Positions 8,591-8,795 of a stretch of DNA of 33,046 nucleotides are shown one piece after another; the stretch's first letter is position 1; the number at the start of each line of letters is the position of its first letter. Both the position numbers and the translations under genes were made by a program. Source of the DNA: Escherichia coli (lineage in GTDB: Bacteria; Pseudomonadota; Gammaproteobacteria; Enterobacterales; Enterobacteriaceae); the NCBI RefSeq assembly GCF_003334815.1, contig NZ_QOWO01000041.1. The stretch is one strand, 5' to 3'. The notes beneath the pieces were generated by a model, which searched no databases, was not told the origin of the DNA, and worked only from the letters and a program-made list of their open reading frames with translations.

Positions 8591-8795
8591 GCCGGATGCG
8601 GCGTAAACGCCTTATCCGGCCTACGGTTCGATGCGATTTGTAGGTCGGATAAGATGCGCAAGCATCGCATCCGACAATAAGTGCCGGATGCTGCGAAAAT
8701 GCCTTATCTGGCCTACAGATTCGATGCGATTCGTAGGTCGGATAAGATGCGCAAGCATCGCATCCGACAATAAGTGCCGAATGCGACCTACATTC
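8591..8795. repeat. REP/BIME cluster: two tandem ~92-bp units of paired inverted REP sequences plus a third partial REP
   Basis: Unit 1 at 8591-8682 and unit 2 at 8683-8775 are near-identical (GCCGGATGCGGCGTAAACGCCTTATCCGGCCTAC ... GTAGGTCGGATAAGATGCGCAAGCATCGCATCCGACAATAAGT). Partial REP at 8776-8795. Lies between convergent ybhC and ybhJ. Confidence 0.7.

What the first reader, a model, noticed from the sequence alone, without database searches (positions are those of the whole stretch)
8591..8795. Tandemly duplicated BIME unit generating a spurious repetitive ORF
Two ~92-bp units at 8591-8682 and 8683-8775 are near-identical, which produces the artificial ORF 8631-9038 with the repeated peptide MRFVGRIRCASIASDNKCRM. 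REP clusters bind IHF and gyrase, act as transcript stabilisers, and are targets for REP-associated transposases and IS insertion.
Basis: seen in the sequence. Interest (0 to 1): 0.25.

Follow-up and report, generated by a model that had tools for sequence, protein, structure and literature searches.

The report
Two-unit REP/BIME-2 array between ybhC and ybhJ
This is an ordinary, already catalogued kind of E. coli non-coding repeat (a BIME-2 cluster of REP hairpins, here in two tandem copies between the ends of two converging genes), and the repetitive "ORF" across it is a by-product of the repeat, not a gene.

Summary
Window 8590-8774 holds two tandem units of 92 and 93 bp that are 86/93 identical, followed by a truncated fifth REP at 8775-8791. 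Each unit is one Y-type REP plus one inverted Z2-like REP, the make-up of a BIME-2. It fills the 233-bp gap between the converging 3' ends of ybhC and ybhJ, and this stretch is 100% identical to E. coli K-12 MG1655.

The ORF 8631-9038 and its repeated peptide exist, but the evidence says it is spurious:
- It runs antisense into ybhJ.
- It is unannotated in RefSeq.
- It is absent from a 15-billion-protein collection.
- It is broken or missing in other alleles.

About 52% of 5,426 E. coli genomes have two units, about 38% have one, and about 10% have none. The last group carries two clean intrinsic terminators instead. E. albertii has five units.

The minus strand at 8643-8713 just passes Rfam's naRNA4 threshold.

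The most likely role is 3'-end hairpins for both mRNAs plus a gyrase site. That role is inferred, not shown. This is known biology and of low interest.

The parts
7291..8574 (+). ybhC (outer-membrane lipoprotein / putative acyl-CoA thioester hydrolase). Its stop codon is at 8572-8574, which is 15-16 nt before the first REP.
   Evidence: ORF; RefSeq annotation of the identical sequence
8590..8624 (-). Y-type REP no. 1. The GTAG foot is on the minus strand, so the plus strand shows the iREP form TGCCGGATGCGGCGTAAACGCCTTATCCGGCCTAC. It matches the Y hairpin of the Rfam naRNA4 consensus exactly.
   Evidence: cmscan alignment 2; DNA hairpin of -11.3 kcal/mol; the Y assignment follows the y REP sequence in PMC3479197 and the Y-l-Z2 order in PMC4550694
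8625..8639 (.). Long linker of unit 1 (15 nt, GGTTCGATGCGATTT), lying between the CTAC and GTAG feet of the two REPs. It supplies the ATG of the spurious ORF.
   Evidence: sequence; alignment
8640..8676 (+). Z2-like REP no. 1 (GTAGGTCGGATAAGATGCGCAAGCATCGCATCCGACA). It has the length and loop of Z2, but its outer stem is GTCGGAT/ATCCGAC instead of GCCTGAT/ATCAGGC.
   Evidence: cmscan alignment 1, where the stem changes are compensated; DNA hairpin of -11.6 kcal/mol, z = -5.3,
8677..8681 (.). Short linker (ATAAG) between the heads of the Z2-like REP and the next Y REP.
   Evidence: sequence. It is 6 nt shorter than the corresponding linker of REP325/naRNA4.
8682..8716 (-). Y-type REP no. 2, degraded by four substitutions (TGCCGGATGCtGCGaAAAtGCCTTATCtGGCCTAC). 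Its hairpin is weak.
   Evidence: DNA hairpin of -4.9 kcal/mol, z = -1.05. Three of the four substitutions are shared with Escherichia sp. E1V33 unit 2.
8717..8732 (.). Long linker of unit 2 (16 nt, AGATTCGATGCGATTC).
8733..8769 (+). Z2-like REP no. 2, identical to no. 1.
8770..8774 (.). Short linker (ATAAG), second copy.
8775..8791 (-). Truncated fifth REP (TGCCGAATGCGACCTAC: a head and a foot with the middle missing). It closes the array in every Escherichia allele that carries a full unit.
   Evidence: it does not fold as a REP on its own (-2.3 kcal/mol)
8774..8809 (+). Residual terminator-like hairpin (8774-8804) plus a T5 run (8805-8809) at the end of the ybhC transcript. It is built from the truncated REP and the remnant right arm of the terminator seen in BIME-less alleles. 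The T run overlaps the ybhJ stop codon.
   Evidence: RNA fold of -11.6 kcal/mol, z = -3.0; comparison with L003. The simple terminator scan did not call it.
8643..8713 (-). Match to Rfam RF02564 (naRNA4, the Y-linker-Z2 double hairpin of REP325). It sits on the ybhJ-sense strand.
   Evidence: 60.7 bits against a gathering score of 59.5, E = 1.5e-8
8631..9038 (+). Spurious ORF (135 aa) with the 31-codon repeat. Positions 8808-9038 are antisense to ybhJ.
   Evidence: It is absent from the protein collection, unannotated and not conserved across alleles.
8621..8797 (-). Second spurious repetitive ORF (58 aa) on the opposite strand. Several reading frames on both strands stay open across the array.
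8808..11069 (-). ybhJ (aconitase-family putative hydratase), converging on ybhC. Its stop codon is at 8808-8810.

Best explanation
The feature is a BIME-2-type cluster of repetitive extragenic palindromes. It has two tandem 92/93-bp units, each made of a Y REP and an inverted Z2-like REP joined by a 15/16-nt linker and a 5-nt linker. A truncated REP closes the array. It occupies the whole 233-bp spacer between the converging 3' ends of ybhC and ybhJ in a K-12-like E. coli chromosome. It is non-coding. The 135-codon ORF and its repeated peptide arise only because the unit length is a multiple of three and the G+C-rich REPs contain few stop codons.

Shown here: copy number at this locus changes over evolutionary time, with 0, 1 or 2 units in E. 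coli, half a unit to 5 units in other Escherichia, and none in Citrobacter koseri. Inferred: the changes happen by unequal recombination or replication slippage between units, possibly helped by the REP-associated Y1 transposase, which recombines BIMEs in vitro (PMC3333891).

Likely mode of action (inferred from the anatomy and from published work on the family, not shown for this locus):
(a) As RNA, the hairpins form the structured 3' ends of both converging transcripts. There they would block 3'-to-5' exonucleases and attenuate read-through. They stand where BIME-less alleles carry two classical intrinsic terminators. In BIME alleles the ybhJ terminator is gone, and only a weak hairpin plus T5 remains for ybhC.
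(b) As DNA, the Y REPs are preferred gyrase binding and cleavage sites.
For: Anatomy: TRF gives period 93, 2.1 copies and score 334. The direct repeats and hairpin arms are listed, and unit identity is 86/93. The individual REPs fold as the classical imperfect palindromes with an internal mismatch. The intact copies reach -11.3 and -11.6 kcal/mol, with z-scores of -2.6 to -5.3. The whole spacer folds far better than shuffles on both strands (z = -10.2 and -6.7).

Type: the first REP equals the Y hairpin of the naRNA4 consensus. The second aligns to the Z2 hairpin with compensated stem changes. There is no IHF consensus in 8575-8807, and the linkers are short. The definitions of Y, Z2, BIME-1 and BIME-2 come from PMC3333891, PMC3479197 and PMC1187871.

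Context: the genes converge and nothing is annotated between them in MG1655 or in strain 52F4.

Polymorphism:
- The spacer is 233 bp in 33 of 59 sampled genomes, 139-141 bp in 21 and 69-70 bp in 5.
- The unit1-unit2 junction is present in 2,798 of 5,426 genomes.
- The BIME-less sequence is present in 527 genomes.
- E. albertii has 5 units, E1V33 has 2, and E. whittamii and SCPM-O-B-8794 have 1. MOD1-EC7003 has a single Y REP, and C. koseri has none.
- This matches the published rule that BIME-2 loci are conserved in position but length-polymorphic (PMC1187871; PMC3333891).

Terminator replacement: the BIME-less allele has two strong hairpin-plus-T-run terminators, one per strand. The BIME allele has none by the same scan and only a -11.6 kcal/mol hairpin plus T5.

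ORF: the exact products of both strands and of four alternative starts or alleles are absent from about 15 billion predicted proteins. No CDS is annotated under the BIME in any listed RefSeq record. The frame is interrupted in E. albertii, and its first half is missing in the BIME-less allele.

Gyrase: cleavage sites are over-represented in BIME-2 and fall mostly in y REPs (PMC6379681).
Against: No functional data for this particular locus were found. A literature search for ybhC, ybhJ and REP together returned nothing. The supplements that might list the locus are not held or do not mention it.

The Z2-like REP is a locus-specific variant. With its linker it occurs at a median of only 2 places per genome, which are the two units here. 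Its outer stem differs from the Z2 consensus. The linker motif names (S, s, l, r) could not be checked against the original definitions.

The second Y REP is degraded, so part of the array may be decaying rather than maintained. About 10% of E. coli do without the element, which argues that any function is dispensable or replaceable by ordinary terminators.

PMC6379681 reports that gyrase cleavage is concentrated in a subset of BIME-2. Whether this one belongs to that subset is unknown.
Confidence: 0.9

Rival explanations
1. The minus-strand transcript of the array is the 3' UTR of ybhJ. It could be processed into a naRNA4-like double-hairpin RNA that binds HU and helps bridge cruciform DNA. 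The locus would then be a functional nucleoid-associated ncRNA gene like REP325, not merely a passive repeat.
For: Rfam RF02564 (naRNA4) matches 8643-8713 on the minus strand at 60.7 bits, above the curated gathering score of 59.5. That strand is the sense strand of ybhJ, and no intrinsic terminator separates it from ybhJ. Qian et al. report that most annotated REPs are transcribed and that an RNA with two hairpins (Y and Z2) is what HU-mediated condensation needs (PMC4550694).
Against: The score clears the threshold by only 1.2 bits. The Y hairpin in this copy is the degraded one (-4.9 kcal/mol, no better than shuffles). The linker is 6 nt shorter than in the model. The Rfam model is in effect a model of a BIME-2 unit, so a hit shows sequence family rather than function. 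Only REP325 RNA was tested experimentally. About 48% of E. coli lack the Y2/Z2 pair that makes the hit.
Confidence: 0.12
2. ORF 8631-9038 (or the minus-strand ORF 8621-8797) is a real gene encoding a small repetitive protein.
For: An ATG-initiated open frame of 135 codons exists.
Against: It overlaps ybhJ antisense for 231 nt. Neither the product, nor the product from the second ATG, nor the one-unit allele's product, nor the minus-strand products occur in a collection of about 15 billion predicted proteins, although more than 2,700 complete genomes carry this DNA. PGAP annotates nothing there. Several frames on both strands are open across the array, as expected for stop-poor REP DNA. In E. 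albertii a stop separates the BIME part from the ybhJ-antisense part, and in the BIME-less allele the N-terminal half does not exist. No promoter-like site was found in 8300-9100.
Confidence: 0.01
3. The element is a BIME-1 / RIP-type element that acts through IHF binding.
For: REPs occur in inverted pairs here, as in BIME-1.
Against: No WATCAANNNNTTR match falls within 8575-8807. The only nearby match, 7192-7204, lies in the prophage attL arm. The linkers are 15/16 nt and 5 nt rather than the long conserved L linker. The units are tandemly repeated, whereas BIME-1 occurs as single copies (PMC3333891). The partner of Y has the Z2 length and loop.
Confidence: 0.02
4. The array is selectively neutral junk. 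It would be a decaying remnant of REP proliferation with no effect on ybhC or ybhJ expression or on topology, and its copy number would drift by slippage.
For: One Y REP is degraded. About 10% of E. coli have no BIME here, and one Escherichia lineage keeps only a single REP. The copy number ranges from 0 to 5 without an obvious pattern.
Against: The element has persisted at exactly this position with the same right-hand junction across E. albertii, E. whittamii, E1V33 and E. coli. The hairpins stay 97-98% paired across 13 units. Two independent double (compensatory) changes in E. albertii keep a helix intact. Alleles lacking the BIME always carry terminators instead. This suggests that some 3'-end structure is needed at this spot.
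Confidence: 0.25

Closest known systems
BIME-2 family of E. coli REP clusters (Gilson/Bachellier nomenclature, as summarised in PMC3333891 and PMC1187871)
   Same: It has Y and Z2-type REPs in alternating orientation, each with a GTAG foot and a stem mismatch. The linkers are short and the units are tandem. It lies outside genes at the 3' ends of transcription units. Its length is polymorphic between strains at a fixed locus.
   Different: The Z2 partner is a locus-specific variant with outer stem GTCGGAT/ATCCGAC. One Y copy is degraded. The array ends in a truncated REP that is recruited into a weak terminator-like hairpin. The linker motif classes were not verified.
REP325 / naRNA4 (yjdM-yjdN BIME-2; Rfam RF02564; PMC4550694)
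   Same: It has the same Y-linker-Z2 double-hairpin unit. The minus strand here passes the Rfam gathering score. It would be transcribed from an upstream gene.
   Different: This locus has two units rather than six. The head-to-head linker is 6 nt shorter, and the Y hairpin in the matching copy is weak. No evidence exists for HU binding or a nucleoid role at this locus.
Gyrase-cleaved BIME-2 such as sucC-sucB and tldD-yhdP (Espeli and Boccard 1997, as cited in PMC6379681)
   Same: It has the same element class and contains intact y-type REPs, which are the preferred cleavage targets.
   Different: Cleavage at the ybhC-ybhJ array has not been shown. Only a subset of BIME-2 elements are strong sites.
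BIME-1 / RIP (RIB) elements with an IHF site
   Same: It has paired inverted REPs, one of them Y.
   Different: BIME-1 pairs Y with Z1 across a long conserved L linker carrying an IHF site, and it occurs as a single copy. None of these features holds here.
REPtron (tnpA-REP / RAYT gene flanked by BIMEs)
   Same: The BIME units have GTAG feet and CT dinucleotides, which are the substrates of the Y1 transposase.
   Different: There is no transposase gene in the 33-kb window. This is a dispersed BIME, not the REPtron.

Membership tests
BIME-2 | Built of Y-type and Z2-type REPs in alternating (inverted) orientation | tested here: met
   8590-8624 equals the Y hairpin of the naRNA4/REP325 consensus. 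8640-8676 aligns to the Z2 hairpin with the same length and loop and with compensated stem changes. The orientation alternates. Caveat: the Z2 copy is a variant, and the Y/Z2 consensus was taken indirectly from PMC3479197, PMC3333891, PMC4550694 and Rfam.
BIME-2 | Each REP is a 30-40-nt imperfect palindrome with a conserved GTAG at the 5' foot and a mismatch in the stem | tested here: met
   GTAG/CTAC is present at all four full REPs and at the truncated one. The hairpins have an internal 2x2 or 1x1 mismatch.
BIME-2 | Tandem multiple copies, with copy number variable between strains at a conserved locus | tested here: met
   There are 2.1 copies here. E. coli has 0, 1 or 2 units. Other Escherichia have 0.5 to 5.
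BIME-2 | Short linkers, with no long L linker carrying an IHF site (this separates it from BIME-1) | tested here: met
   The linkers are 15/16 nt and 5 nt. No WATCAANNNNTTR match falls in 8575-8807.
BIME-2 | Linkers belong to the named motif classes S and s/l/r | not tested
   The original motif consensus papers are not held. The head-to-head linker is 6 nt shorter than the one in REP325. PMC3333891 states that BIME-2 linkers vary in length and sequence.
BIME-2 | [quoted passage not shown] | tested here: met
   It lies between the stop codons of the converging genes ybhC and ybhJ.
BIME-2 | Bound and cleaved by DNA gyrase in vivo | not testable with these tools
   Only family-level data are available (PMC6379681). 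The locus is not named in the held supplement text.
naRNA4 (Rfam RF02564) | Covariance-model score at or above the curated gathering score | tested here: met
   The score is 60.7 bits against 59.5 at 8643-8713 on the minus strand. This is marginal. The other copies score 37-42 bits.
naRNA4 (Rfam RF02564) | Expressed as a discrete RNA that binds HU and condenses DNA | not testable with these tools
   This has been shown only for REP325 RNA (PMC4550694).
BIME-1 / RIP | Single Y-L-Z1 unit with an IHF consensus in the long linker | tested here: not met
   There is no IHF consensus, the units are tandem, and the partner REP is Z2-like.
REPtron | BIMEs flank a tnpA-REP (RAYT) gene | tested here: not met
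   All 41 annotated features of the identical 33-kb stretch in strain 52F4 are accounted for, and none is a Y1 transposase. The rest of the genome is not available.
Protein-coding gene (ORF 8631-9038) | Reading frame and product conserved in relatives and predicted by gene callers | tested here: not met
   The product is absent from the protein collection and unannotated. The frame is broken or absent in other alleles.

The most novel reading that the evidence does not exclude
The locus offers a natural allelic series at one converging gene pair: two intrinsic terminators, then a single REP, then a BIME-2 in 1, 2 or 5 copies. The series may tune ybhC and ybhJ 3'-end formation, antisense read-through and local supercoiling. 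The ybhJ-sense transcript of the two-unit allele might in addition yield a second HU-binding naRNA4-like RNA. If so, REP copy-number variation would be an adaptive expression or topology dial rather than drift.
Probability: 0.12. Interest if true: 0.35.

Novelty: already known. Interest (0 to 1): 0.1.

Why it matters
It matters little as a discovery. REP/BIME elements of E. coli K-12 have been catalogued since the 1990s, and this stretch is identical to MG1655.

The practical value is for annotation. The 135-codon ORF and its minus-strand twin should not be called as genes. The Rfam naRNA4 hit should be read as 'a BIME-2 unit', not as evidence of a functional sRNA.

The allele survey is a tidy illustration of two known principles. 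First, BIME-2 loci are fixed in position but vary in length. Second, a BIME can stand where other alleles and genera carry ordinary terminators. The 0-, 1- and 2-unit alleles could serve as a ready-made test set for REP function at 3' ends.

Tried and rejected
1. I first labelled the short REPs Z2 and the long ones Y, from memory. The y REP sequence in PMC3479197, the cleavage-site remark in PMC3333891 and the Y-l-Z2 order in PMC4550694 show the reverse. The names were corrected (note).

2. The minimum-energy hairpin of the Z2-like REP showed no compensatory changes across 13 units. An alternative register (GATGCG/CGCATC) is supported by two double changes. With only two events this is recorded as an aside.

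3. Literature searches for this specific locus led nowhere. No paper holds ybhC, ybhJ and REP together. Liang et al. 2015/2016 and Gilson et al. 1991 are not held. The supplements of PMC12306157, PMC3333891, PMC4550694 and PMC6379681 are not held or do not mention the genes.

4. The local copy of NC_000913.3 lists no repeat_region feature for this spacer. I therefore could not quote the K-12 REP number.

5. The simple terminator scan finds nothing in the BIME allele. The weak hairpin plus T5 was found only by folding.

6. IHF binding (BIME-1) was considered and rejected.

7. A coding role for either repetitive ORF was considered and rejected.

8. I looked for three-unit E. coli alleles. None appeared among 59 sampled spacers. 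At most 9 of 3,014 matching genomes show a second copy of the unit junction. I did not inspect them.

Full report
**What is in the sequence.** The window is a K-12-like E. coli chromosome segment. ybhC (7291-8574, +) and ybhJ (8808-11069, -) converge on a 233-bp spacer. That spacer and its flanks are 100% identical to MG1655 and many other strains.

Tandem Repeats Finder reports one strong array at 8590-8785: period 93, 2.1 copies, 91% matches, score 334. The repeat finder shows a 65-nt direct repeat at 97% identity and a 35-nt one at 89%, plus short hairpin arms inside each. The two units are 8590-8681 (92 nt) and 8682-8774 (93 nt), and they align with 86 of 93 positions identical.

**Anatomy.** Reading the plus strand, the order is:
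- a Y-type REP in iREP orientation (8590-8624)
- a 15-nt linker
- a Z2-like REP with its GTAG foot (8640-8676)
- the 5-nt linker ATAAG
- a second Y REP (8682-8716)
- a 16-nt linker
- a second Z2-like REP (8733-8769)
- ATAAG again
- a truncated REP (8775-8791)

The intact REPs fold as the classical imperfect palindromes with an internal mismatch, at -11.3 and -11.6 kcal/mol as DNA. The second Y REP carries four substitutions and folds no better than shuffled sequence (-4.9 kcal/mol). The truncated REP does not fold as a REP. The whole spacer is far more structured than shuffles on both strands (z = -10.2 and -6.7).

The Y and Z2 names follow three sources. The first is the y REP sequence in PMC3479197. 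The second is the statement in PMC3333891 that TGCC|TGAT sites occur in z1 and z2 but not in y. The third is the Y-l-Z2 order of REP325 in PMC4550694, which is the order of the Rfam naRNA4 consensus. I had the names reversed at first and corrected them.

**Which kind of BIME.** PMC3333891 and PMC1187871 define the two types. BIME-1 is a single Y-L-Z1 unit whose long linker often carries an IHF site. BIME-2 is tandem Y/Z2 units with short linkers.

Here the units are tandem and the linkers are 15/16 nt and 5 nt. The partner of Y has the Z2 length and loop. No IHF consensus lies in 8575-8807.

The Z2-like copy is a locus-specific variant. Its outer stem is GTCGGAT/ATCCGAC, a compensated change from GCCTGAT/ATCAGGC. 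With its linker it occurs at a median of only two places per genome, which are the two units at this locus. The canonical parts of the element hit a median of 25 places per genome.

**The ORF.** ORF 8631-9038 exists and repeats MRFVGRIRCASIASDNKCRM, because 93 bp is 31 codons. Everything else speaks against a gene:
- 231 nt of it are antisense to ybhJ.
- Several frames on both strands are open across the array.
- Its product, three alternative products and two minus-strand products are absent from about 15 billion predicted proteins, although at least 2,798 complete genomes carry the DNA.
- RefSeq annotates nothing between ybhC and ybhJ.
- In E. albertii a stop splits the frame, and in BIME-less alleles its first half does not exist.
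- No promoter-like site was found nearby.

**Copy number across strains and species.** I used a query made only of the ybhC and ybhJ ends. The spacer was 232-233 bp in 33 of 59 sampled genomes, 139-141 bp in 21 and 69-70 bp in 5. The 139-141 bp group includes O157:H7, O145, Nissle 1917, ST131, S88 and NRG 857C.

Junction-specific queries give harder counts:
- The unit1-unit2 junction occurs in 2,798 of 5,426 genomes.
- A further 216 genomes match only as a one-unit form that joins a canonical Y to the unit-2 linker, as in strain C3.
- The BIME-less sequence occurs in 527 genomes.
- The remainder, about 35%, are by subtraction one-unit alleles of the EDL933 kind.

A scan of one genome per species found these states:
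- E. albertii has five units.
- Escherichia sp. E1V33 has two. Its second Y REP shares three of the four K-12 substitutions, so the two-unit state is old or has moved by recombination.
- E. whittamii and strain SCPM-O-B-8794 have one unit.
- Escherichia sp. MOD1-EC7003 has a single Y REP.
- Citrobacter koseri has no REP but a hairpin terminator.

All arrays that contain a full unit end in the same truncated REP and the same right-hand junction. This is the published behaviour of BIME-2 loci, which are conserved in position and polymorphic in length.

**What the element stands in for.** The BIME-less E. coli allele carries two clean intrinsic terminators, one per strand (-27 and -28.6 kcal/mol over the 75-nt spacer; three terminator-like sites called). 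C. koseri has a single G+C-rich hairpin flanked by a T run.

In BIME alleles the ybhJ terminator is gone. The ybhC terminator survives only as its right arm and a T5 run. Together with the truncated REP, these form a weaker hairpin at 8774-8804 (-11.6 kcal/mol, z = -3.0). The simple scan does not call it. The REP hairpins therefore occupy the place where other alleles terminate both transcripts.

**Most likely mechanism (inferred).** As RNA, the hairpins would form the structured 3' ends of both mRNAs. They would slow 3' exonucleases and attenuate read-through, which are the roles listed for REPs and BIMEs in PMC12306157 and PMC1187871. As DNA, the Y REPs are the preferred gyrase cleavage targets in BIME-2 (PMC6379681). 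Copy number would change by unequal recombination or slippage between units. The REP-associated Y1 transposase may help, since it recombines BIMEs in vitro.

The first REP stem starts 16 nt after the ybhC stop (15 nt if the leading T is counted). This is at the edge of the limit of 15 nt or less reported for REP-mediated translational down-regulation. I cannot decide that point. None of these functions has been shown for this locus.

**Rivals.**
- An Rfam naRNA4 match lies on the ybhJ-sense strand (8643-8713, 60.7 bits against a gathering score of 59.5). It allows the reading that the array yields an HU-binding RNA like REP325. However, the margin is 1.2 bits, the Y hairpin of that copy is the degraded one, the linker is shorter, and the model is essentially a BIME-2 unit.
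- A purely neutral, decaying repeat is not excluded. One REP is degraded and 10% of strains lack the element.
- Against neutrality, the element persists across the genus at one position. The hairpins are 97-98% paired over 13 units. Two double changes in E. albertii keep a helix intact (3 of 500 shuffles reach this). Terminators are always present when the BIME is absent.
- Coding and BIME-1/IHF readings are rejected.

**Verdict.** The finding is real and correctly interpreted, but it is a known kind of element in a fully catalogued genome. Interest is low. Its practical use is to prevent mis-annotation of the ORFs and over-reading of the naRNA4 hit.

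Noticed in passing
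window 1-7245: A defective lambdoid prophage sits at the lambda attachment site next to ybhC. It has an intact lambda-type int (6086-7156) and xis (5890-6108). Positions 3161-7244 are 98% identical to phage lambda 27724-31794. Exo and ea22 are truncated, and the exo fragment lies close to rusA, quuD and a porin gene (651-1733). This implies that the immunity and replication region has been deleted. The attL core TTAGTATAAAAAAGC lies at about 7231-7245. Only 22 of 5,426 genomes carry at least 80% of this arrangement, and the best match is strain 52F4 from a calf.
   Followed up: partly
window 7192-7204 (-): One of only three IHF-consensus matches in the window falls in the P' arm of the prophage attL. 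It is not in the BIME.
   Followed up: no
window 27803-27834 (+): A solitary Z-type REP (GCCTGATGCGACGCTGCGCGACTTATCAGGCC) lies between the converging genes gpmA and aroG. It is followed by CTGT instead of the usual CTAC foot. Its DNA hairpin is -8.4 kcal/mol.
   Followed up: partly
L003 776-845 (E. coli e1-39; the same allele occurs in 527 genomes): The BIME-less ybhC-ybhJ spacer of 69-70 bp carries two strong intrinsic terminators, one per strand. Only the right arm and T run of the ybhC terminator are recognisable in BIME-bearing alleles.
   Followed up: yes
L006 1481-1945 (E. albertii NBRC 107761): A five-unit array lies at the same locus. Units 1 and 3 each carry a double change, G-C to A-U and C-G to U-A. 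These preserve an alternative inner helix, GATGCG/CGCATC, in the Z2-like REP. That helix is not the minimum-energy register.
   Followed up: partly
L011 6041-6226 (Escherichia sp. E1V33): This two-unit array has a second Y REP that shares three of the four substitutions degrading the K-12 second Y REP. The two-unit allele therefore predates the split of these lineages or has been exchanged between them.
   Followed up: partly
L010 424-486 (Escherichia sp. MOD1-EC7003): The spacer is only 63 bp and holds a single intact Y REP and nothing else. This is a 'half-unit' state of the same locus.
   Followed up: no
L004 791-883 (E. coli C3; about 216 genomes): This one-unit allele combines a canonical Y REP with the unit-2 type linker. 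Its flanks are about 99.3% identical to two-unit strains. It looks like a deletion or recombination product between units, but the direction of change is unresolved.
   Followed up: partly
window 32764-33046 (-): tRNA genes and an RtT-family repeat lie at the right end of the window, downstream of nadA. Rfam reports tRNA at 32767-32839 and 32975-33046, and RtT at 32873-33040. PGAP places RtT sRNA at 32764-32889 and tRNA-Lys at 32920-32995, so the two annotations disagree on which stretch is tRNA and which is RtT.
   Followed up: no
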